From assembly GCA_001275005.1 (NCBI GenBank), contig JWZX01003295.1:1-34698 (forward strand): 34,698 nucleotides of DNA. The letters are read 5' to 3'. Of this stretch, positions 669-32,584 are shown one piece after another (position 1 is the stretch's first letter; each line of letters starts with the position of its first letter). The notes under the pieces were generated by a model. The model was not told the DNA's origin, searched no databases, and saw only the letters and a program-made list of their open reading frames with translations. The position numbers were made by a program, and so were the translations under genes. This DNA is from Chrysochromulina tobinii. Taxonomy: Eukaryota.

Positions 669-2466
669 TCACGCGGTGATGGCCTGCAGAGCTCCTGCCA
701 CGACGCTGCCAGCAGTCGCCAGCCACACGCGCTTGTCAATCGCTCCGGCAGTCAGGAGGCCAGAGAGGACCGCGCCTGTCACGCCATCCGTCGCGATGTC
801 CTGTCCAGTCAGGTACAAGTTTGGCAGCGGCGTCTGCGGCGTGAGCCACTCTTGCGCGAAGCGCGCAGGCGTATGGCTCAGCCCATACGCCTCGCCCCAT
901 TGGGTGCCCAGATAGTAATTGTTCGAGAGCGGCGTGCCCAGATCACAGTACGCGAGATGGCCTCTGAGCTGCGGCAGCTTGGCAAGGACGGCTTCGGTCA
1001 TTCGGCTGGTCAGCTTCCTCTTGACGTCCTCATACTCCGCACCGCGATGTTTGATGCGAGTTCCCGCCCAGCCGGCCCAGTACTCGCAGCGCGACGGTGC
1101 GAGTGCGAGCACCACCTGCTTGCTGCCATGGCGGGCTGTCCAAGCAGGATCTTTGGACGAAGGCGACGAGATGAACAAGAGCAGGGGATGCTCCTCAGCC
1201 ACATTGCCGAGGGCCGGGGGTAGCGCGCCGTGTTGAGCCTCGTGGTCCCAGCCGTCGAAGCACCACAGGTTGTGCTTCGGTAGGTCGACCACCTTGGGGG
1301 ATGTCCCTTCGACCCCAAGGAACAGATAGAGGAACGCACAGGAGGGCTCCACTTCGCTCTTCGTGCCGACGGGCGGCGCAATCGGCGGTGCATCTCGTAT
1401 GGATCGGAGAATGCCATCGAGCCGGGGGCGCTGTCTACTCGGCACGAGGCGGCAAAAGGTGTTGATGGCGCCGACCGCCGAGATGACTCGCGTCGCTGTT
1501 AGGGTTTGGTCGCGCACGATCACGCCGAGGACCGCCCCGCTCGCCTCATCGCACACGAGCGACGAGACTTTCGCGCGCACAAGCACGGCCCCTCCCGCTG
1601 CTTCAATGGTGGGCACGAGGCGGGCGGCGAGCTGTGAGCAGCCGCCCACCGGGTAGTAGCCGCCGTTTGCATAGTGATTCAGAAGGACCAAGTGAAGGGC
1701 GTACGGTGACCGCGACGGCGGGACGCCGTAGGTGCCCCAAATGTAGCCAAGGAGCTGCTGGAGCTTCGGATCATTCGTGAGCGAGGCGAGGCCTTGCGCC
1801 GTCGTCTGCATCGGGCCCAGCATCCACCGCAGCGGCACGCCGATGGCGGAGGGCAGGTTCTTGAGGCAGAGGTGGAGGCTGAGCGCTACGTGTGCCCACA
1901 CAACGGCCCAGGGGTAATGACGGAGGGCGGCGGCCTCTCCAGGGAAGCGGCGGCGGAGCTCGTCGAGGAATGCCGACTTGGGGCTCAGGATGGGCACGCG
2001 CTCGGCTCCGAAGTGGACCTCATCAACCAGCGCTCCCGTGAGTGCCCACTCGATCCTGCCTGAGGTCACCGTGTTCATGAGCGTGCCGAGGATGTCGCCC
2101 ACGTAGTGCAGCCCAGTGTCAAATTCGAAGCCCCGCTCCTCGAAGGTGTGCGTGCAGCCGCCGGCAACGTCGTGCTGCTCGAGCACCAGCACGCGTTGGC
2201 CGCGCTTGGCCAGCAGCGCAGCAGCCGTGAGGCCACCCATACCGCTGCCGATGACGATTGTATCGATCTCGGCTGGCACCTTTTTCGAGGTGTAGCCATT
2301 CTTGAGGACGGCAAGGCTTGCCAGTGGCGCAGGGCTCTCACGTGGCTCGAGGATCTTGCCATGCAGACGTCGCCGAAGCACGAGGAGCCACAGGAGCAAG
2401 TAGGCGACAAGCAGTAGAGCAGCGCCCGCGACGATCCACAACGCATAGGCGTATGCTTCAAGCGGC

Positions 2467-2497
<31 letters not shown>

Positions 2498-2540
2498 GCA
2501 GCGGCCGGGAGAGAAGACGTGCAATCCACTTGGGTGCCAT
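669..2540 (-). CDS. RETSAT: All-trans-retinol 13,14-reductase-like / phytoene desaturase-family FAD oxidoreductase with N-terminal membrane anchor
   Basis: 623-aa ORF. Poly-Pro and TM helix, then Rossmann motif IVIGSGMGGL, LEQHDVAGGCTHTF..GFEFDTGLHYVG, YYPVGG, and C-terminal GTPLSNNYYLG / YGL / TPLPNLYLTGQDI..GVTGA, typical of the RETSAT/CrtI family. Confidence 0.88.
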
Positions 2541-2776: not shown

Positions 2777-3126
2777 ACTAGTACTTGGTCGCGTAGGTTG
2801 GTGATTGCGGTTCATCAAACTACATGTACACAAAGGCAGCCTGGTGAGCGCGACATCCCGCTTTTCCCGGTCCCTGCTAAAGCTAGACCAGGCTTAGAAC
2901 ATCGCGGTGCTGGGTGGGAGGGAACACATCATCTCTCTTATCACTCATATGTACTTCTGGCTTGCGCGCATCAAATCGTGCGACGGGCTGTCGTGAGGAA
3001 TCGTGTGACCCCAAACGGCGGAGATACCCCATACCCAGGGCTCTCCGTATCCCCCCGTGCCCCGATCTTGTTCCATGATGGATACCGTACCATGTCGCAT
3101 GTGTGATGTGATCGACACCTTCACCA

Positions 3127-3855
3127 TCAGGCCGATCTTGATCGTGTGGTGTGACCGCGCGGAAGGTCGACCTTAGACAAATCGGCCGCCCGCTTTTCCT
3201 CCATGAGCCTATCTAACTTGGCGTACTCGGCGAGGAGTTCGTCATCATCCGCGTCGATGCCACCCAGCTGGCGGTCCATCGCATTATCAATCTCCCGCGC
3301 GTCCGTATGCACCTCCACCAAACCGTCCATTAACTCCTCCACTTTGTCCACGCCGCCAATCGTCTTTATCAGCACGTCGTTAGCCATTAAGTAGTCATTC
3401 AAAGACATAATGGTCGACTTCAGGTTCTCGAGGTTCATCTTCGACATATCGAGGGTCGTCAACCTTTGCTCATACATCTTCTTCCTCTTGAGACACTGCA
3501 GCGCCTCCCGTTTCTTGCCCGCCGCGTGAAACTTCATCGCGTTACCCCATTCCGAGTCGAGTTTGCACTGAAAGTAGTCCTCTTTCTTCCCGATGTTCAC
3601 GATCTGTTCGTCAATATTGGGAATCGCCGCCTTCGCCAGCAGCGCAGCAGCCGAAAGGCTTGCCAGCGGCGCAGGGCTCTCACGTGGTTCGAGGATCTTG
3701 CCATGCAGACGTCGCCGAAGCACGAGGAGCCACAGGAGCAAGCAGGCGACAAGCAGCAGAGCAGCGCCCGCGACGATCCACAACGCATAGGCGTATGCTT
3801 CAAGCGGCGGCGGCGGCGGCGGTGGCCGGGCGAGAAGACATGTATTGGGTGCCAT
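3127..3855 (-). CDS. Chimeric ORF: duplicated RETSAT N-terminus (TM anchor) fused in frame to a divergent Snf7/Vps32 (CHMP4-like) ESCRT-III domain
   Basis: 3631-3855 is a near-identical copy of 2205-2540 lacking 84 nt and with a shorter poly-Pro. The remainder has Snf7 hallmarks KKREALQCLKRKKMYEQRL, VDKVEELMD and DDDELLAE. Confidence 0.8.
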   Translation of the reverse strand: MAPNTCLLARPPPPPPPLEAYAYALWIVAGAALLLVACLLLWLLVLRRRLHGKILEPRESPAPLASLSAAALLAKAAIPNIDEQIVNIGKKEDYFQCKLDSEWGNAMKFHAAGKKREALQCLKRKKMYEQRLTTLDMSKMNLENLKSTIMSLNDYLMANDVLIKTIGGVDKVEELMDGLVEVHTDAREIDNAMDRQLGGIDADDDELLAEYAKLDRLMEEKRAADLSKVDLPRGHTTRSRSA

Positions 3856-5886: not shown

Positions 5887-8800
5887 ATGGAGCCCGCACG
5901 GGCATTCACGCTGCGTGCCGACAGCGACGCAGAATCATCGGCCCTCGAACGGGAAGAGGTCGACAGTCGCGGGCTGCGCCTGTCCTTCACATCGGAAAGT
6001 GTGCGCCGTTCATTGCAAGGGGAAGAGTTGCATGAGACCTTGGGCGGCGGCACGTCGGGGTCGTTGTGGCGGCGCGCTGGGGAACTATTGACCTCACGCC
6101 ACGGCATATCGGTGGCCTCTTCAAATGACTCGTACACTTCTCATCGGTGGCACAGCCGTTGCAACGTCGACACCGAGAGCTCGCACTTGTTTGGCTCCTC
6201 GGCAGCGACGCTAGATTGCACGCTCCCATGGCATGCAGTGCTGCCGAGTGCACGGCCGGTCACAGCGGTGCCGCACCTAAACTTTGGCACGAGCCGCGCC
6301 GGCGACGCCGTGCCCCAAGCAATCGAATGGACGAGACGGCTTGGGTCCAATGGAGTGTACGATTCGAGTCATCGACCATTGAGCCTGGCGCGCTCGGGCG
6401 AGGGGAGCTCGTCGGGCACGCTTTTGACGGATCCCTTTGGCGCGTGTGCGCCGCCCATAGGCATCGGGGCCCCGTCCTTTGTCGGGTGCGGCGGCGTCGA
6501 CGGCTGGGGCCGCGCGAGCTTCGTCAATCGTGGCGCATTCAGAGCGGCGGCAGACTCGTCGGAAGTGTCGACGACATCGCATGTGGGGCGTGCGTGCGCG
6601 CGCGGCGTGGCCACGACACCACCGCCCCAAGCCGAGGCGGCCCGCGTCGCGGCTCGACTGATCGATGAAGTCTTCCATGCCTGTCGGGAGGGTGCGCCGC
6701 CGCAGCCATCGCTGATGCCACAGCGCCCACGGACGGCGCCAGCGCTCGTGCCGGCGGCGTCAGCGGTGCTCGCGGGCAGCGCTCCCTCCTACGCCCGCCC
6801 TCACGCGCGCGCCATCCCTCCTACGCGTGCCTTCTGCTCACCACGTCGCGCCATCCGCTCACCACGACGCTCATTCTGCTCACCACGACGCGCAACCTGT
6901 TCACTACGGCGCGCCTTCTGCTCACATACCGGTACTCGCGCCGCGCGAACTAACAGCGCTGCTGCCGGCCGCGTGGGAGGTTGTCGCCGGCGACGCCGTG
7001 CCCCAAGCAATCGAATGGACGAGACGGCTTGGGTCCAACGGAGTGCACGATGCGAGTCGTCGACCGTTGAGCCAGATGAGGGAGGCAATCAGCATGCAAT
7101 CAGAGGGGGGCTCGTCGGGCAGCCTGATGAGGGAGGCAATCAGCATGCAATCAGAGGGGGGCTCGTCGGGCAGCCTGATGAGGGAGGCAATCAGCATGCA
7201 ATCAGAGGTGGGCTCGTCGGGCACGCTCTCGATGGATCCCTTTGGCGCGTGTGCGCCACCCATAGGCATCGGGGCCCCGTCCTTTGTCGGGTGTGCGCCG
7301 CCCTTTGCCCCACTGGCGGACGCGGCCGAGGGGTGCGCAGCCGCAGCCGCAGCTGAAGCCGAAGCACCGGAGACGGTGGCTGCACCAGAGGCGGCGGCAA
7401 CAGCACCAGAGGCACCAACAGCACCAGAGGCAACAGCACCAGAGGCACCAACAGCACCAGAGGCACCGGAGGCGGCGGCAACAGCACCAGAGGCGGCGGA
7501 GGCGGCGGCACCGGAGGTGGAGGCAGCGGCTGCAGCAGCACTCACGGCGGCAGAGACGACATCGGCGCCAGCGCTCGGGACGGCGCCAGCGCTCGGGACG
7601 GCGCCAGCGCTCGGGACGGCGCCAGCGCTCGGGACGGCGGCAGAGACGACATCGGCGCCAGCGGCAGCGCCCGAGGCGGCGCCGGACGATGTCGCTTTGC
7701 GGGCGGAGGAGCCACCATGCTCAAGTGAGCGAGTGGTCGAGGCACTCGCGGCACAGGCGGCCTCGAGACACGCGCGTGAACGTGCCGCGGAGTCGCAACG
7801 GTCGCTCAAGGCAGCTGTTCTGCGTGCGCAAGCGAGCAACGGGCGTGCCGCCTCGTTTCTCGAGACGCTGACGGCTTCGGTCGCTGAGACGATCGCACGA
7901 GCGCGCGCTCAGGTAGGCACGCCGATGGAGGCGAACACTCCTCTACCGACGGCGCCGCCAGCCGGCACAGCGCCCGTCACGGCGCCCGTCACGGCGCCCG
8001 GCACAGCGCCCGGCACAGCGTCGTCACCGCCCATACCCTTGCCAGCTTCTGGGCTGCGCGCCTCGCTGGTACCCTCCTTGACGATGCCGCCATCCTCATT
8101 CGTGTCGCCGGACCGCTCGCCGGCCGCCTCGCCGCACCAGCAGCCGTTGGCACCCCTCGCGCCGCTCGCGCCGCCGTCGCGGCGCGTGAGGAGCGATGGG
8201 TTCCGACGCTCTCCCGACTCTGTCGTGGCGAATGCGGATTGGCTACCACCGATGGCCCTCCTTGGCAGCGATGTCGGCGGGAGGAGCGCTGTACCGAGCA
8301 GTAGCAGTGGCGGCCGCAGCGCTGTACTGAGCGGAAGCGACAGCGCTCATGCCTCAGCCTCGTCCCCGCTCGGTACAGCGCTCCTTCCGGGTGAGTACTC
8401 TCTAGACGGCGTCAACGTCGACACGGAGCAACTCCATGAGTACACGACGAGCGGCCGGTGCATCCTGCATGCAGACGGTACGCTCAGTGGCGAGGCACAG
8501 GAGACGAGCACCGCCTGGGAGAACAAGCTCACGTACAAACTCACACACGGCCATTGGACACCGGTGGGCCATCTCTGCTTCCGGCTGCAGCATGCCGACC
8601 ACCGCGCCGCCTACTTCGACCCCTTCTACTTTTCGGTCCAGTTCCAGCCCGCGCTGCCACGAGCGCTCACGACGGCGCGGTATCGGGGCGAGGACTGCCG
8701 CACGAGCTCGACCATCTCCTCAATCACGTCGATCTCGTCAATCACGTCGATCTCGTCAATCACGAGCCGCACGAGCTCCACCATCGAACGCCGCCGGGGC

Positions 8801-9028: not shown

Positions 9029-9738
9029 GCTCGGAGGAAACCTCGGACCGGACGATCCAGATCCTTATCGATGGCACGGCACGGCAGTACACGGAGTAGC
9101 CAGTCGGATACCAGTAGATGGGTCCGCTCACGTCACGGGGACGAAATCGACCCATTGTGTAAGTCGACCGGATCTGCGCTTGGGAATATGGGAAAATTCG
9201 CTACACCCGTACGGTACGGTACACTGTGTCCGAGCCTCGCCTGTATTATCGCCTGTATACACCGCGTACCGCAACGCGGTGTGACGTGTGTGCAGTGCTG
9301 CAGTCACTCAGCAGTCGAGTGTGGGTCGCGATACGGAGGGTGAGCTCCACGATACTGCGAGCTAAAGCAAACACGTCCGCGACACTTTCCCACAGTTCCC
9401 AAGAGTCGGTTGGCTCACCGTCGACGCAAGCGGTACAGAGTGCAGTCGACTGTGCACACGGAGACAGGAGAGCGCTCCTGTGGTCGACACACCCGTGTCC
9501 ACGGCCCGGCGCCGTGCCACGCCCGCACACCATGGCGCTCGAGAGCGCGCGTGCTGAATGCAGCGCCGCGCGCCTAGCCCTCCCGCCGGTCGCTATGAGT
9601 AGACGTGCGCCATTCAAGGCTCAATCGTCTTTCAAATGGTACTCGCGGCCAGCACCGTCGCCCTCAGCACATCATTGCACCCTGCCCATCGAAGAGCCCT
9701 TTCTTACAGCACCTTGGAGGCCACCATGCTGAGCGCAC

Positions 9739-9784
9739 TGTGGATTGCATCCCTCATCAGCATGCTGATTGCATCCCTCATCAG
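9739..9784. repeat. Two copies of gattgcatccctcatcag (reverse complement of the CTGATGAGGG..CAATC motif), probably in a CAX 3'UTR intron (about 9793-9713)
   Basis: Direct repeat just downstream of the CAX stop. The minus strand reads tgaag|gtacgtcatctgatgaggg...ccaag|gtg. Confidence 0.55.
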
Positions 9785-9795
9785 ATGACGTACCT

Positions 9796-11323
9796 TCATT
9801 GCATGCGGAGCGCACGGTCGTCGTGCCCGTGGTCGGCGCCCTCAAACTCGAAGAAAAAGAAGGCCGAGCTGATGATGATGTACGTGGAGATGAGCATGGC
9901 GCCCTCGAGCCAGTTCGTCGAGCCGTCGTTGATGACGCTTGCGACGATCACCGTCGAGAGGAAGGTAATCTGTTCGAGCAGGACGAGGTCCATCAGTGGG
10001 AATCAAAGGTCATCCGAGGTCACGCAGTCAATGGGAAACAAAGGTCATCCGAGGTCACGCAGTCAATGGGAATCAAAGGTCATCCGAGGTCACGCAGTCA
10101 ATGGGAATCAAAGGTCATCCGAGGTCACGCAGTCAATGGGAATCAAAGGTCATCCGAGGTCACGCAGTCAATGGGAATCAAAGGTCATCCGAGGTCACGC
10201 AGTCATTGGGAATCAAAGGTCATCCGAGGTCACGCAGTCATTGGGAATCCAAGGTGCTCAAGGACATGCGCAGCGCCGATCCAAGGTACTTCCCACAGGT
10301 ACTCACCGCACTCTCAAAGAGGCCGAAGTCGAGGTCGAGGGGCTGGCCGATGAGCCAGCCGAGCAGCACCATCACCGGGACCACGAAGAGCGCAATTTGG
10401 GTCGACGAGCCCTGCGCCACCGCCAGCGCAAGGTCCATCTTCAGCCGGAACGCCATCACGACCGCCGTCGAGTGCTCGGCCGCGTTGCCGATGATCGGGA
10501 TGATGACGAAACCCACGAATGCGGGCGTGAGGCCCATGCCCTCGGCGGCGCCCTCGACAGCACCCGAGAGGAGCTCGGACAGGTACGCGAGCACAAGCGT
10601 CGCCCCGAGCAGCCACAATATCGACCCCCAGAAGCCCAGGTACGACTCCTCTTCTTCGCCCTCCTCGGCCTCCTTTTTGTGTTCCTCCTCGCCAGGCTTG
10701 AGAGCCGGGCACGGGCAGAGCGTGTTCATGAGGAAGAGCGCGTACAGGAAGAGGAAGATGACGGAGATGAAGCGCGATATCGAGAGCGACTCGTTGCCGT
10801 GGGACTCGAACTGACCGGTGGCCGTCATCAGGGTAGGGAGAATGACGCCGATCACGGACACCTGGAGCATGGTGGTATTCGCTGTCGCCGTCGTCGATCC
10901 ATAAGCCACGTTCCGCTTGACGGAGCCGGAGGCCAGGCACGCGAACCCGAGCACGAGGAGGGCGTTCGAGAGGATGGATCCGAGGAGCGAGAGCTTCACC
11001 ACCTCGAGTTGGCCAGCTTTGAGGAGGAAGAAACAGATGATCATCTCGGTCGCGTTGCCGAATGTCGCATTGAGGAGCCCGCCGATCGTCTGGCTGGTGT
11101 GGAGCGCTGTCTGCTCCGTGGCGTCGCCGAGCAGAGCGGCGAGCGGCAGGATTGCAAAGCAGCAGAGGCTGAAGATGATGGCTTCGGACTCAAAGAACTC
11201 CTCGCTCACCAGTGCAATCGGAACAAACAACAGCAGAATGTACAAGCGATTGCCGGTCAGCATCGTATAGCTGCCCTTGAAGAAGCTGCCCACACCATCG
11301 GCGGCGGGCGGGGGGTGCATCAT
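9796..11323 (-). CDS. CAX: Ca2+/H+ exchanger (CAX/VCX1 family); exons 11323-10307 and 9969-9796
   Basis: Alpha-1 GGLLNATFGNATE and alpha-2 IIPIIGNAAEH..AV..A...KMDLAL..AQGSSTQIALFVVP, with an acidic central loop. Intron gtgagt...cag (10306-9970) joins GLFESA to ITFLSTVIV...DGSTNWLEGAMLISTY. Confidence 0.93.
9998..10255. repeat. 35-bp intronic minisatellite (gggaatcaaaggtcatccgaggtcacgcagtcaat) x7 plus a partial copy
   Basis: Units start at 9998, 10033, 10068, 10103, 10138, 10173, 10208 and 10243, nearly identical, all within the CAX intron. Confidence 0.95.
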
Positions 11324-20899: not shown

Positions 20900-21400
20900 A
20901 GGCCAGCTTCAGGCGCACGGCCATGTCGAAGCTCGCCAGCAACACTTCTGCACTCTCAAGGCGAACTCCGGAGTCAAACCACGACAGGACCGGCGCGCTG
21001 CTTCTGGAACAGTGACCAGGCGAACGCCGGAGTCGAATCACGACAATTCTGTAACTGCTGCTGCTGCCGGTGCGAGCGCTGCGAGCGCTGTGGAAATATG
21101 GAGGCGAAGACCCGAATCAAACCACGAAAGGGCCGGCATCAACGATCGCTTGCAGGTGGTGGCCGTTGTGGCCTTGGGGATGCTGACCTCGTTGGGCTCG
21201 AGGCTCGGGTAATCCAGCCAGGACAGGCCGGTGCCACAGCGGGCATCAAGGTGGCGACGGTGGCGGGCTCGACAGCACCCTTGCCGGCCTGCGCACAGAG
21301 ACGCGCTCGGTCTCGATACGAAGGCCTCGTCGGCATGCGCACAGAGACGCGCTTGCGCGTCGAGGCTTCGGGCATGGCGATCGTCGCGGCCTCGGAGAGC
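20900..21400 (-). pseudogene. Convergent decayed paralog with SWFDSGxRL repeats
   Basis: Motifs at 21127-21101, 21043-21017 (Trp TGG to TGA) and 20984-20958, with frameshifts between them. A possible leader MLFIHTLNVIFTASAG lies at 21775. Confidence 0.5.
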
Positions 21401-21519
21401 CTGTCACTGAGGAGACGTCCCCACAGGTGCGCCTCCCAAATTTGGGCATGGCGATCGTCGCGGCCTCGGAGAGCCTGTCACTGAGGAGACGTCCCCACAG
21501 GTGCACCTCCCAAATTTGG
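21370..21519. repeat. 74-bp tandem duplication containing ccccacaggtg
   Basis: Copies start at 21370 and 21444. A third ccccacaggtg lies near 21528. Confidence 0.85.
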
Positions 21520-27859: not shown

Positions 27860-28564
27860 ATGGCGGCCCCCTTCACTGCGGAGGATGCTGAGGCCTCGAC
27901 GAAAGAGGCCATGCCGACGGCTGTATTCATTGTGCGCTCGCGCGCCTGCCATGATGCCGACTCCCCAAGTCGCTGCACGCTATGCCGAGCTTTGTCCGAC
28001 CGTCGCGGCTCCCGCCTTTCCTCTCGTTGCTTGCAGGAGGACATCGAGGCTTACATGAAGAAGGAGGGCGACCCTGGGACGGCGCTCGACAAGTTACAGA
28101 AGCTCTACCAGGTCTTCAAATTCATCGAGCAGCGGCTCACGCAGAAGAAGAACAAACTCAAGATGAAGAAGCCTGAGATTGAGAAGACGTATGCAGCACT
28201 ATGCGCAATGGAGGAGCAGGCGAAGAAGGGCGAGCCGCTCGTGATGCACTACGAGCTGGCGCAGTCGGTGAGCGCGAAGGCCATCGTCAACGTGCATGAG
28301 AGCGACAAGGTTTGCCTCTGGTTGGGCGCGAACGTCATGCTCGAGTACCCGCGCGCTGAGGCGATCGCTCTGCTTGCGCAGCAGCTCGCAGACTGTAAAA
28401 AGGCGCTCGCGACGACGATCGATGACATGGGCTTCCTGCGCGACCAGATCACCACGACCGAGGTCAACATGGCGCGTGTCTTCAACTGGGACGTTAAGGA
28501 TCGGCGGATCAAGAAGGAGAAGGAGGAGAAGATTGCACGCGGCGAGGCGGTCGACGTCGAATGA
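27860..28564 (+). CDS. PFDN3: Prefoldin subunit 3 (VBP1/PAC10); exons 27860-27931 and 28037-28564
   Basis: MPTAVFI|EDI after removing a 105-nt in-frame intron gtgcgc...ttgcag. KVCLWLGANVMLEY and FLRDQITTTEVNMARVFNWDV are diagnostic. Confidence 0.95.
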   Translation: MAAPFTAEDAEASTKEAMPTAVFIVRSRACHDADSPSRCTLCRALSDRRGSRLSSRCLQEDIEAYMKKEGDPGTALDKLQKLYQVFKFIEQRLTQKKNKLKMKKPEIEKTYAALCAMEEQAKKGEPLVMHYELAQSVSAKAIVNVHESDKVCLWLGANVMLEYPRAEAIALLAQQLADCKKALATTIDDMGFLRDQITTTEVNMARVFNWDVKDRRIKKEKEEKIARGEAVDVE

Positions 28565-28745: not shown

Positions 28746-31700
28746 ATGGTAAACTGGGACTTCGGCGTGCCTCACTTCGCCGCTAAAATCGAGTGCGACT
28801 GCTTGGGATGCCGGTCGGAACGTCAACTCGAACCAAAGACGGGCGAGGAGACCGCGACCGGCCCGCGGCTCCCGCCTCTGCCCCCGCTCGCCGAGAATGC
28901 CATCCTCGAGCCAGGCGAGATCGTCGAGCGCGACAAGCCGGTGCTCACGATGTTCGCGGGCTCGTACCTCGCACCGCTGCTTCCTATGACCCGCTCGACG
29001 ACGTGGGAGATACGCCGAGGTGCGATCACCTCTCTTGCGCGCCTCTCGGATGACCACCTGCGGGCGGCGGTCGCGGCCCTGCGTAGCTTTAAGGGCCGGT
29101 CGGTGCTCGTCGACATCATGGAGTACTGCTCAAGTCAGCTCGTCGACGCGGTGGCGCGGCGCGAGGCAGTCGAGGGACTTGTCAATCTGCTCGGGCACAC
29201 GCACGCGCAGAGCGAGCTCCGCGCCGAGGGGCTGCTACCGGACCTCCTCATCCTCCTAAGGTACGTCGAGACAGACTCGGGGATGAAGCTCAGGTTTCCG
29301 ATGTTCATCCGCGGCATCGAGGGGCTGTGCCGGAACCGGAAGCTCGCGATGCTCATGGTGCGCGTCGGCTTCGGCCCCGATCTGCTCCGCGTGGCTTCGG
29401 ACCTCTCGGGTGGCGCAGGCCTGATCGCGGCGGGGGTGCGGAGCGCGGCTGTGAATGCGCTCATCTCGATGTCGCAGAACCCGGAGGCTCGGGTGCAGTT
29501 GAAGAATGAAGGGGCGCTCGTGCTCGCCACCGATCTACTGCGCAGCGAACTTCATGAGCTGCGGCGCAGTGGCGGCACCCTAGCGTGCAACCTTTGCCTC
29601 CACCCGGATAACCGCCTGGACGCGCTGCGTTCCCCACTGCTTGAGCAGATGATCATCTCCGCGTCCACCCCCAAACCGGGCGAGGATGCCGACCTGGCCC
29701 TCGCGCTCGCGTCGCTGGTGGCGGACGTGCAGCTCGTGCGCTCGCTCTCGTCCCCGGCCATGTGCAACGCGCTCCTCGCGCTCCTGCGGCACGGCTCTCG
29801 CGAGGGCTGCCGTCACGCGGCGTGGGCGAGTTCCAACCTAGCGAGCTCTCGACCGGTGGCGCCCTCGATGCTGCAGCCCGAGTTCCTGGACGTGCTCCTC
29901 TGCTTGTGCGAGGACAACACGGCCTCGGCTGCCGCGCTCCTCGGCGGCCGGCGCACCGACAAGCAGTGCAAGCGTGACGCTAAGAAGACGCTGTGCTGGC
30001 TCGCTCCCCTGGCGCTTCGCGAGCTTCAGTCAGGCTTGGCAGTCCGTCGTCGGCTCGTGAAGCTCATCGTGCGCTGCGCCGAGTCGACCGATCCGGAGAT
30101 TCAGTCGTCGGGGCTGCTGGTGCTTGGGGTGTGGTCCGAGACCCTCGCGCTGCACGACGAGCTTGTGAAACACGGCATGCTCCTGCCTCTCACCTTGGCC
30201 ATCTCGGCGCCCACGCGCCATGCCGAGCACTCGCCCGTCGCCCATCTGCGCGGCGCACGGGCGCTGGCATGCCTCACCGTGCACCAGCACTACCACCGCA
30301 ACCTCTCAGAGGATGGCGTCGTCGCGCCGCTGCTCCAGCTGCTTTGTTCGTGCAACCAGATGGTTCGTGTGTACGCGGGCCGCGCGGTGCTGAACCTCTC
30401 TCGCAACGTGCATGCCGCGCTCGAACTCGTGCGGCAGGGGGGTCTGGCCACGCTCCTCATCATCCGGCGCGGCGACGACCCGTCCTTCTCGAAGGCTCGC
30501 TTGGCGCTCGATCCGGACGGCGCTCTGCAGCCGCAACGCACGGCCGCTCTCATGCTGGCCCGGAAGGAGGCGGCTGAGGCCGAGGCGGCGGCCGAGGCGG
30601 CAGCGACGAGCGCGACGGCCAAGACGGACGCGGCCGTGGCCGCGGCGATCGCCGCGGTTCGCCCAGCCGACGCCGAGGCGGCGGCGGCGGCGGCGCGCCG
30701 GTCGGCTGAGCTGTCGACGCTCGAGCGCGAGTACGCTTGACACGTGTCCGATCACACGACCCTCTCATTTCCGAGGATTGCCCCCTGATGGCCAGTGATT
30801 GGATCCCTCATCAGACCCTCTAATGTCCGAGGATTGCCCCCTGATGGCCAGTGATTGGATCCCTCATCAGGTACGCTCGACAGGCGTCCAACAACCTTCT
30901 GCGAGCGTGGGAGCTGCAGGAGGAGAAGATGGCCGTAGATGATCGACACTTGGAGATGCTGTGGCAGGACTTGCTCTACCTGCACCAGCAGATTACCGGG
31001 CTCACTGCCCGGGAGTTGGCCCGTCAGCATCAACGTGAGCGTCTGAATCGCAACGAGGACCCCGACGTCGTCGCCGTCAAGCACGACGTGCCCGAGTCGG
31101 AAGTCGTAGCGCCGCACAATGCGTCCGCGGCGCGTGTGGTCGCGGAGAGCGTACGATTAAAGGCCAGAATCGCTGTCCATGCGCCGGTGCTCATTGCCTG
31201 CCTGTACGGCTGGCACTATCTCGCGGCGATCAGAAAGACGGGGACGGAGCTCGATCAACGCATGCGCGCGGCGGGCATCCTACAGCAAGCCAACAAGAAT
31301 CATCAAAAGCGGCGGCGCGTGGCCAAAGCGACTCGCATTCAAGCTGGCTACCGCGGATGGAGCTGTAGGCGCAAGCTTCGGAGGGCGGCCTTGGAAGGGG
31401 GCGAAGACGCAGACCTCGCCCGCGCCGCCGCCTCCATCGGGCGGTCCCGTGATCGATGGAATTCCGTGCGATCCATGGAATTGAGCCCCATCACGATTGA
31501 TGAAGCGATTGATGCGGCAGCGGCCGGCGGCGACCTCGAAGACGACGCCGCGCCGCCGCTGCTGCCACCACACGTAAATTCGAGATACGATCGGTTGTCA
31601 CCGTCGCGGTTCACGCCGCTGCCATCGCCGGCAGCGACCAGCCCCGCGCATGCCAAGGCTTCCAGTAATGAAGGCAAGGCACTCGAATCGAATATGGAAG

Positions 31701-32584
31701 GTCACCTGCCTAATTTGGAAGGAGGCACGCCCCAGACCGAGGCACGTCCCGCGGAGCCAGCGCCGGTCTTTGGTTCAATTTTCGGCTCGAGCGAGTACTT
31801 CAAGGATTTGGAGGTGGAGGTGCCGTTGCAGCGCCCCAGGCAACGTATCTCCAGGGCAGTAGCGGCAGCCAATGCGGCGGCGGCAGTCAAGGCGAAGGCC
31901 GAGGCGAAGGCGAAGGCGAAGGCGGAGGCCGAGGCAGCGGCAGCCAAGGCGACGGCCGAGGCCGAGGCGGCGGCGGCCGAGGCAGCCAAGGGGGTGGCCG
32001 AGGCGGGGGCAGCCAAGGCGGTGGCCGAGGCAGACGCGGCGGCGGCCGAGGCCGAGGCTGCGGCGGTGGAGACGGCGGCGGCCGAGGCAGCCAAGGGGGT
32101 GGAGGTCGAGGAAGCGGCGGAGGTCGAGGAAGCGGCGGTGGCGGGCTCGGGAAATGAGAACTTCGAAGCGACCCAATTTGGAGTTCAATCACCTGAGGCG
32201 CGTGAGGCGTCTGAGGCGTCTGAGGCGCCCTTGGGCGTGGTTTCTGCAGCTGCCGCCGCGACGGAAGAGCCCTCCGAATGGGTGCACTCCGTTCAGGATG
32301 ACGAGCACTCCGAGGCGGCGCTTGAGGCGACGATGGCGGAGCTGCGAGCGCGCGAGGCGGTGCTTGAGGAGACGATGGATGAGGAACTCGCTGAGGAGAT
32401 GGCTGGAGGTGTGCAGCTCGCTGAGGAGATGGCTGGAGATGTGCAGCTCGCTGAGCCGGAGGCTCCGGGAGATGTGCAGCTCGCTGAGCCGGAGGCCGAG
32501 GAGATGGCGGGAGATGTGCAGCTCGCTGAGCCGGAGGCTCCGGCCGAGCCTGTAGCTGAGGTGGACGCAGACGCGGAGCCGTAG
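28746..32584 (+). CDS. Armadillo-repeat protein with IQ calmodulin-binding motif and Ala/Glu-rich tail; exons 28746-30730 and 30871-32584
   Basis: ARM-like helices (AVNALISMSQNPEARVQLKNEGAL, AAWASSNLA, GVVAPLLQLL..AGRAVLNLS). Intron 30731-30870 joins GA+G=Glu in frame. IQ motif ATRIQAGYRGWSCRRKL; VQLAE repeats. Confidence 0.75.
30759..30870. repeat. 56-bp tandem repeat x2 ending in gatccctcatcag, supplying the intron acceptor
   Basis: ccgaggattgccccctgatggccagtgattggatccctcatcag at 30771 and 30827. Confidence 0.9.

What the first reader, a model, noticed from the sequence alone, without database searches (positions are those of the whole stretch)
30731..30889. Intron built from duplicated exon sequence plus a motif-supplied acceptor (introner-like gain)
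Seen: the intron's first 19 nt (gtacgcttgacacgtgtcc) match the first 19 nt of the next exon (gtacgctcgacaggcgtcc) at 16/19. The rest is mostly two 56-bp units ending in ccctcatcag, which is the acceptor. The junction ccctcatcag|gtac is the reverse complement of gtacctgatgaggg, so the motif can give an acceptor in one orientation or a donor-proximal end in the other (as at about 9793, gtacgtcatctgatgaggg). Known: introners create introns using element-encoded splice sites and target duplications. Inference: a bidirectional intron-generating system without obvious TIRs.
Basis: partly seen in the sequence, partly recalled or inferred. Interest (0 to 1): 0.7.

Follow-up and report, generated by a model that had tools for sequence, protein, structure and literature searches.

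The report
New introns copied from existing introns
A 140-base intron in a freshwater alga starts with a copy of the next exon's first 19 bases, and dozens of other introns in this alga are built the same way from a 10-48-base duplication plus filler that in several cases matches another intron, which likely means new introns arise here by sloppy copying of existing ones rather than from a classical jumping gene.

Summary
Observation confirmed: intron 30731-30870 (140 nt, GT..AG), 16/19 match to the next exon start, two 56-nt units. An RNA contig skips exactly these 140 nt. The organism is Chrysochromulina tobinii. It is a family trait: 43 of 68 distinct motif-ended sites in metagenome loci repeat their exon start upstream (control 0.35%). 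Duplications run 10-48 nt, mostly start GT/GC, and there are no TIRs. One site is empty in another assembly. The filler is not a bounded element. Exon-derived bits of three parent introns reappear in other introns, the best match lies in the same locus 8 of 71 times (0.9 expected), junctions show microhomology, and copies inside existing introns do not end at AG. 'Bidirectional' is not supported: 108 of 126 sites are sense. Best reading: templated insertion with duplication, likely during break repair (0.5); retroelement priming is the main rival. A published introner survey lists zero families for this genome. The scan noted the duplication footprint before at another locus of this genome (e1-2577349).

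The parts
28746..30730 (+). Exon 1 of an armadillo-repeat / IQ-motif protein gene
   Evidence: Open frame, Pfam Arm_2 and Arm matches; a cluster member is KOO22260.1 of C. tobinii on a 34,698-bp contig
30731..30870 (+). Spliceosomal intron, 140 nt, GT..AG, phase 2
   Evidence: Sequence; RNA contig skips exactly this stretch; spliced frame open
30731..30749 (+). Intronic copy of the exon-2 start; supplies the GT donor; carries the in-frame TGA (30738-30740)
   Evidence: 16/19 to 30871-30889
30750..30757 (+). 8-nt spacer between duplication and repeat body, source not found
   Evidence: Sequence
30758..30813 (+). 56-nt unit 1, degenerate array of CTGAT-type ~10-mers; followed by G it forms an internal acceptor-like AG at 30813-30814 whose use would shift the frame
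30814..30870 (+). 56-nt unit 2 plus final G; branch-point-like CTAAT (30820) and CTGAT (30841); acceptor motif CCCTCATCAG (30861-30870)
   Evidence: branch-point role inferred from the CTRAY consensus (recalled)
30871..30889 (+). Exonic (original) copy of the duplicated 19 nt
   Evidence: a 48%-identical homolog P0106 runs uninterrupted through this position
30871..32584 (+). Exon 2 (weak IQ motif, Ala/Glu-rich tail)
   Evidence: covered by RNA contigs
9738..9815 (-). Related insert in antisense orientation at the 3' end of a Ca/H-exchanger-like gene, flanked by a degenerate ~14-nt duplication 77 nt apart; splicing untested
7070..7223 (.). Same motif family as a 51-nt triplicated patch inside a segmental duplicate; the paralogous copy at about 6296-6490 lacks it

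Best explanation
This is a spliced 140-nt intron made of a duplicated exon stretch plus repeat filler, and it likely arose when a break or stalled end in the exon was extended on an existing intron as template and then rejoined 19 nt back. Shown: the intron, the duplication starting at GT, the family-wide architecture (exon | GT-duplicate | CTGAT-type repeats | CCCTCATCAG | exon), filler shared with other introns, and one empty allele at a sister site. Inferred: (1) the 3' end at the end of the future duplicate anneals by a few bases to the repeat body of another intron, more often a nearby one; (2) synthesis copies the 3' part of that intron with its branch-point-like words and acceptor; (3) the strand returns to the host upstream of the break, re-copying 10-48 nt. 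Where the return point is a GT/GC donor-like site the product is spliced out exactly and survives; other products persist only inside introns or untranslated DNA. Each new intron would be a template for the next, and unequal exchange between the direct repeats would give the tandem units and precise losses seen. The enzyme (polymerase-theta-like end joining or synthesis-dependent annealing) is not identified.
For: 43 of 68 terminal motif sites repeat the exon start upstream against 16 of 4556 shuffled pairs; the signal starts at +1 and decays by +40. Duplication length varies from 10 to 48 nt (one 72) and last-unit filler from 29 to 184 nt. 71 of 80 duplicates start GT/GC; 35 of 71 are perfect. 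Microhomology at the duplicate/filler junction averages 2.5 nt against 1.3 in controls (50 of 71 testable, p 2e-4). The best 3'-anchored match is in the same locus for 8 of 71 (0.9 expected), and neighbours share more 9-mers, falling with distance (0.050/0.034/0.028 against 0.022; 24 of 5000 permutations). Three parent loci have their own duplicated exon start inside other introns: L127/L051 to L058, L082, L128/L038; L130 to L042; L113/L026 to L041. The captures that landed inside existing introns at L128/L038 and L041 do not end at AG. At L128/L038 the junction homology runs into the parent's upstream exon, and parent and child lie 2.6 kb apart on one contig. L082's target shares its first 10 nt with the parent's exon start. 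L061 lacks the L033 intron at its exact site while keeping other introns.
Against: No parent was found for this intron's own filler: best match 33 of the last 40 nt among sampled loci; closer sisters appear only as 37-45-nt pieces in runs X1 and X13. The capture cases are few, found partly by eye, and my automated control windows were contaminated by neighbouring introns. Locality is modest: 63 of 71 best matches are elsewhere, though the sample is a small part of the genome. Exon starts of best-match pairs agree only slightly more than random pairs (2.5 against 2.1 nt). A constant 3' end, variable 5' end and variable long duplication are also the textbook footprint of target-primed reverse transcription (recalled). 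CpG decay is symmetric between copies (9 against 9), so it does not mark the intronic copy as the decaying one. An empty allele can also arise by loss between the direct repeats. All sites were picked by the acceptor motif, which biases toward AG-ended products.
Confidence: 0.5

Rival explanations
1. A LINE- or Penelope-type reverse transcriptase nicks the target, primes on the acceptor junction of an unspliced or partly spliced RNA, copies the intron's 3' part and is truncated, leaving a long variable target duplication.
For: Constant 3' end abutting the downstream copy, variable 5' end with microhomology, duplication 10-48 nt. A non-LTR-classed introner that co-opts its 5' site is listed for a Pavlovales haptophyte (PMC12130899 supplement file 8).
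Against: Captures inside introns do not end at AG and one junction includes the parent's upstream exon, so an excised intron cannot be the template there; the excess of local parents is not expected for trans mobilisation; no poly(A) or tail; no RT-like motif in 388 kb of loci by a crude pattern scan.
Confidence: 0.25
2. Reverse transcriptase copying a pre-mRNA jumps from an exonic GT to another intron's acceptor junction on the same or another RNA, jumps back, and the cDNA converts the gene.
For: Explains sharing between introns of one gene (L033, L053, L028), the sense bias and homology at both junctions; named as a proposed mechanism in PMC3443670 (passages).
Against: Needs two jumps plus conversion; predicts loss of neighbouring introns, and L061/L033 differ at only some introns; antisense-oriented patches exist at 9738-9815 and probably 7070-7223.
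Confidence: 0.13
3. A classical non-autonomous DNA-transposon introner that carries the acceptor and takes the donor from its target duplication.
For: Same splice logic as Symbiodinium/Polarella classes 4, 5, 6, 8, 10 (bioRxiv 10.1101/2020.10.14.339549, parts 1-2 of 4 read); marine Chrysochromulina MAGs hold introners.
Against: Those classes have fixed 3-8-nt duplications; here 10-48 nt. No TIRs (1 of 71 inserts reaches 9/12, target 2/12). No shared 5' boundary or length.
Confidence: 0.05
4. An old intron whose 5' part was overwritten, or a purely local slippage, with the motif being just the species' acceptor consensus.
For: The intron appears fixed in sampled strains (13 of 15 listed cluster members stop at or just after the donor); tandem units spanning acceptors are common (18 of 71); 63 of 143 motif-ended sites show no strong duplication.
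Against: In 54 of 71 sites the duplicate follows sequence other than an acceptor motif, as here; a homolog is uninterrupted at this position; empty allele at a sister site; foreign exon bits inside introns cannot come from local slippage.
Confidence: 0.05
5. Two separate genes, or an assembly artefact.
For: The NCBI model of this gene (P0029) does not use this intron; some RNA contigs include intron sequence.
Against: RNA contig spans the junction; DNA run X1 matches the window through the intron without differences (may be the source sample); homolog P0106 is continuous.
Confidence: 0.02

Closest known systems
Introners that co-opt the 5' site from the TSD and carry the 3' site (Symbiodinium; Polarella glacialis classes 4, 5, 6, 8, 10; bioRxiv 10.1101/2020.10.14.339549 and 10.1101/2022.06.06.494994)
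   Same: Donor from the duplication, acceptor from the insert, no change to the mRNA, many sites per genome.
   Different: Fixed 3-8-nt TSD per class and, in Symbiodinium, inverted repeats; here 10-48-nt variable duplication, no TIRs, no fixed element boundary, filler traced to other introns.
Introner family of a marine Chrysochromulina MAG (10.1101/2022.06.06.494994 Fig. 2C, passages)
   Same: Same genus label, no TIRs.
   Different: 4-bp TSD, carries the 5' site and co-opts the 3' site: the reverse of this case.
Emiliania huxleyi fam24 (PMC12130899 supplement file 8, one table row seen)
   Same: Haptophyte, 'co-opt 5' carry 3'', annotated with 10-bp terminal direct repeats, mechanism unknown.
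   Different: 5 members, 2 of them in paralogs; sequences not seen, so kinship is untested.
Daphnia pulex new introns from staggered double-strand-break repair (PMC4202315, passages)
   Same: Direct repeat of adjacent exon at the opposite intron end, secondary internal duplications, presence/absence polymorphism.
   Different: Repeats 4-12 bp, AT-rich filler of mostly unknown source; here longer repeats and filler that is a shared, splice-signal-bearing family copied from other introns.
Tandem duplications at breaks with complementary 3' overhangs (CST/Pol alpha-primase NHEJ, Pol theta backup; PMC8355091, passages)
   Same: Small duplications from 43-50-nt overhangs, microhomology at junctions in the Pol theta route.
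   Different: Shown in mammalian cells with induced breaks, not as a source of introns; the enzymes were not looked for in this alga.

Membership tests
Spliceosomal GT-AG intron | GT..AG ends and removal restores the frame | tested here: met
Spliceosomal GT-AG intron | Absent from mature RNA | tested here: met
   One RNA contig of another strain skips exactly 140 nt; contig level only, no reads
Introner (operational definition, PMC12130899 methods passages) | Similar introns at many unrelated loci | tested here: met
   143 acceptor-type sites spread over about 78 regions
Introner (operational definition) | Similarity reaches both intron ends, 5' with 5' and 3' with 3' | tested here: not met
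   5' ends are locus-specific exon copies
Introner (operational definition) | Similarity not mainly due to simple repeats or satellites | tested here: not met
   Bodies are arrays of ~10-mers such as CTGATTGCAT and CTGATGACCT
Introner (operational definition) | Recent gain shown by empty orthologous sites | tested here: inconclusive
   1 true empty site among 26 compared; none for the target intron; direction not polarised
TIR DNA transposon / MITE | Terminal inverted repeats | tested here: not met
TIR DNA transposon / MITE | Fixed short TSD | tested here: not met
   10-48 nt
Non-LTR retroposon (SINE / truncated LINE) | Variable long TSD, constant 3' end, 5' truncation with microhomology | tested here: met
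   the feature list is recalled
Non-LTR retroposon (SINE / truncated LINE) | All copies end at the element's 3' end | tested here: not met
   Captures at L128/L038 and L041 end elsewhere
Non-LTR retroposon (SINE / truncated LINE) | Autonomous RT partner sharing the 3' end | tested here: inconclusive
   No RT-like motif in 388 kb by pattern scan; no whole genome held
Intron gain by break repair with templated insertion | Direct repeat of flanking exon, junction microhomology, identifiable template | tested here: met
   Family level; template of the target intron itself not found
Intron gain by break repair with templated insertion | Dependence on end-joining enzymes | not testable with these tools
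   Needs genetics or mutation accumulation
Tandem genomic duplication at AGGT (PMC3443670) | Both splice sites come from the duplicated exon | tested here: not met
   Exon 1 ends in GA; the AG comes from the filler
Known structured RNA (Rfam) | Match to a family, or unusual folding | tested here: not met
   0 matches at E<=1; z -0.55

The most novel reading that the evidence does not exclude
Chrysochromulina tobinii is undergoing large-scale intron gain without any transposon: existing introns serve as templates in repair, each new intron gets its donor from a long exon duplication and becomes a template itself, and the shared AG|GT junction steers new copies to donor-like sites. This would be a self-amplifying, element-free route to thousands of introns that introner surveys filter out by design.
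Probability: 0.4. Interest if true: 0.88.

Novelty: new variant of a known kind. Interest (0 to 1): 0.72.

Why it matters
The source of new spliceosomal introns is a long-standing question, and current surveys attribute bursts of gain to transposons (PMC12130899, passages). Here a burst-like family shows parent-to-child copying between introns, long variable duplications and strain differences in an alga with a public genome and lake populations. That survey's supplement lists this genome with zero introner families, and its filters (similarity at both ends, no simple repeats) would remove this family, so such cases may be undercounted elsewhere. It also affects annotation: the public model of this gene does not use the intron.

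Tried and rejected
No whole genome is held and the metagenome contigs could not be extended, so no genome-wide count or partner search was possible. Motif scan of viral contigs: 0 hits. Prokaryote genomes: 15 single hits, read as chance from their titles and number, not examined further. Three low-GC metagenome loci (L020, L031, L141) are likely chance; they stay in the 68 and are dropped from then on. A directional CpG-decay argument (2 of 3 mismatches at the target are C>T at CpG) failed family-wide, 9 against 9. Five of six sites flagged EMPTY were artefacts of tandem units; several of the 26 comparisons may be re-assemblies of one strain. Automated controls for foreign-exon capture were contaminated by neighbouring introns and are not used as statistics. 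The open-frame test could not tell strands apart (43 against 41 of 51). I tried to tie RNA run X15 to the strain of P0019: they share one amino-acid change only, so this was rejected. A search for longer homologs found none, which is weak evidence; exon-2 look-ups found no exact record. No Rfam match or unusual folding. Paper searches for this family listed nothing that describes it; I read only the papers named, and subscription journals are mostly not held. Two supplement files of PMC12130899 were not searched and the supplement of PMC9860276 was cut, so the TSD calls for marine Chrysochromulina families were not seen.

Full report
Observation. The stretch 30731-30870 is 140 nt, begins GT and ends AG. 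Its first 19 nt match 30871-30889 at 16 positions, and 30758-30869 is two 56-nt units at 96% identity. The chance of such a match within 250 nt is about 1e-4, and outside two tandem arrays it is the only such geometry in the window. Keeping the stretch gives a stop at 30738-30740; removing it gives one frame of 1232 codons with armadillo repeats and a weak IQ motif.

Splicing and host. In polyA run X15 one 2115-nt contig lies at 29670-30661 and 30871-31924, with 69 record letters between, equal to 30662-30730, so exactly 140 nt are skipped. The joint table did not list it, probably because the tool skipped a repeat at 30662-30704. A contig of run X13 starts exactly at 30871. Contigs of X12, X13 and X14 also cover intron sequence, as unspliced RNA or DNA. 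X15 is another strain, so an intron-less allele is not formally excluded. However, 13 of 15 listed members of the exon-1 protein cluster (67 members, 40 read) stop at or two codons after the donor, which suggests the intron is present across sampled strains; a read-through protein would cluster elsewhere. A 48%-identical homolog, P0106, runs without a break through the position; whether it came from DNA or RNA is unknown. One cluster member is KOO22260.1 of Chrysochromulina tobinii on a contig of the window's length; that model does not use this intron.

Family test. Of 163 matches, 151 had context, forming 86 clusters, 68 of them last units before unique sequence. In 43 of 68 the next 18 nt recur within 250 nt upstream at >=14 matches, against 16 of 4556 shuffled pairs; moving the probe 10, 20, 30, 40 and 50 nt on gives 33, 15, 6, 2 and 2. 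A relaxed search of the same loci and the window gave 143 acceptor-type sites, 80 with a clear duplicate, 71 of these starting GT or GC, 35 of 71 perfect. Duplicates are 10-48 nt with one of 72; filler is 29-184 nt per last unit, without TIRs, and is built of ~10-mers containing CTGAT, with a branch-point-like word 17 nt from the end in 100 of 143. In 27 long loci there were 48 further sites in 162 kb; these loci were picked for holding the motif, so this overstates density.

Polymorphism. Of 26 sites covered by a second locus, one is truly empty: L061 lacks the 132-nt intron of L033, leaving one copy of the 28-nt duplicate, while keeping three other motif introns of that gene. L061 also lacks a 68-nt motif intron that has no duplicate, and one 94-nt tandem unit. 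L094 lacks a 96-nt duplicate-flanked insert of L100. Loss between direct repeats could give the same picture, so direction rests on the architecture.

Where the filler comes from. The junction between duplicate and filler shows microhomology, 2.5 nt against 1.3 (50 of 71 testable, p 2e-4). The best 3'-anchored match lies in the same locus for 8 of 71 sites, 0.9 expected, and neighbours share more 9-mers the closer they are. Three parents are recognisable because their own duplicated exon start travelled with the copy. The intron at L127/L051 reappears 5'-truncated in the unrelated genes of L058 and L082 and inside an intron at L128/L038. The tandem block of L130 sits in the L042 intron and is not seen in the part of the same intron held in L123. 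The duplicate of L113/L026 sits inside an L041 intron. The L128/L038 and L041 captures are themselves flanked by duplications but do not end at AG; at L128/L038 the junction homology runs into the parent's upstream exon, and L127 and L128 are 2.6 kb apart on one contig. So in that case the template included exon sequence: DNA or unspliced RNA, not an excised intron. These cases are few and my automated controls were contaminated. The target's own parent was not found, though runs X1 and X13 hold other loci matching 37-45 nt of its end.

Bidirectionality. A codon model trained on window genes (110 of 116 held-out windows correct) places the motif on the host's sense strand at 108 of 126 sites and 24 of 25 GTAC-followed sites; the 12 duplicated exceptions are mostly near-ties. 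None of 9 odd sites has an antisense splice solution. An antisense insert does occur at 9738-9815, after a stop codon, and probably at 7070-7223, as an in-frame patch absent from a paralogous copy. Insertion may therefore go either way, but intron creation is seen in one orientation only.

Mechanism. The data fit templated insertion with duplication: a 3' end at the end of the future duplicate anneals to another intron's repeats, copies its 3' part, and returns upstream. Products that return at a GT/GC site are spliced out exactly. These steps are inferred (0.5). Target-primed reverse transcription on pre-mRNA gives a similar footprint (0.25), as does RT template switching (0.13). A TIR transposon is unlikely (0.05). 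No RT-like motif was seen in 388 kb by a crude scan, and no genome was available.

Comparison. Dinoflagellate introners with the same splice logic have fixed 3-8-nt TSDs (10.1101/2020.10.14.339549, parts 1-2 of 4). The marine Chrysochromulina example has a 4-bp TSD and the reverse logic (10.1101/2022.06.06.494994, passages). PMC12130899 lists C. tobinii with zero families (supplement row), requires similarity at both ends and removes repeat-driven families (passages), and lists E. huxleyi fam24 with 10-bp direct repeats (supplement row). Daphnia new introns have 4-12-bp repeats and mostly unknown filler (PMC4202315, passages). PMC3443670 (passages) lists the proposed routes, and PMC8355091 (passages) shows duplications at staggered breaks. 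The C. tobin genome paper mentions introns once, about one per gene (PMC4580454, passages). Passages of PMC11282704, PMC8469720, PMC3488318 and PMC11782384 added nothing on this family. Searches listed no description of it.

Verdict. It works like an acceptor-carrying introner but fails the membership tests for one. New variant of a known kind; interest 0.72.

Noticed in passing
window 7070-7223 versus 6296-6490: A segmental duplicate in which a 27-nt motif patch replaces about 12 nt between short homologies and is then triplicated as a 51-nt in-frame unit; looks like a templated replacement rather than an intron.
   Followed up: partly
window 9738-9815 (-): Antisense motif insert with a degenerate duplication at the end of a Ca/H-exchanger-like gene, present in L029, L107 and L132 too; a GT..AG cut from the duplicate would shift the frame, a cut at 9793 would be a 3'-UTR intron.
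   Followed up: partly
window 9993-10255: 7.5 copies of a 35-nt unit inside a candidate intron of the same exchanger gene; no exon-start duplication seen by eye.
   Followed up: no
window 21370-21519: Two 74-nt units containing CCCCACAG|GT, a second acceptor-like motif; the 96-nt polymorphic insert in L100 ends in a similar motif, so a second filler family may exist.
   Followed up: no
window 2320-2520 and 3650-3840: The 5' end of the FAD-oxidoreductase-like gene is duplicated about 1.3 kb away and fused to an AT-richer stretch (about 3100-3650) of unlike composition (by eye).
   Followed up: no
L033 about 2713 (minus strand) versus L061: A 68-nt motif-ended intron without a duplicate is precisely absent in L061: either precise loss or a second route of gain.
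   Followed up: partly
L037, L080, L140; L024; L111: Whole duplicate-plus-filler units are tandemly amplified and differ in copy number between assemblies.
   Followed up: partly
protein cluster of window 28746-30730: 7 of 13 members stop directly after the last exon-1 codon and 6 two codons later, which suggests alleles with a changed fourth intron base; gene-caller effects not excluded.
   Followed up: partly
window 27932-28036: An ordinary GT..AG intron without the motif is confirmed by RNA contigs of three runs.
   Followed up: no
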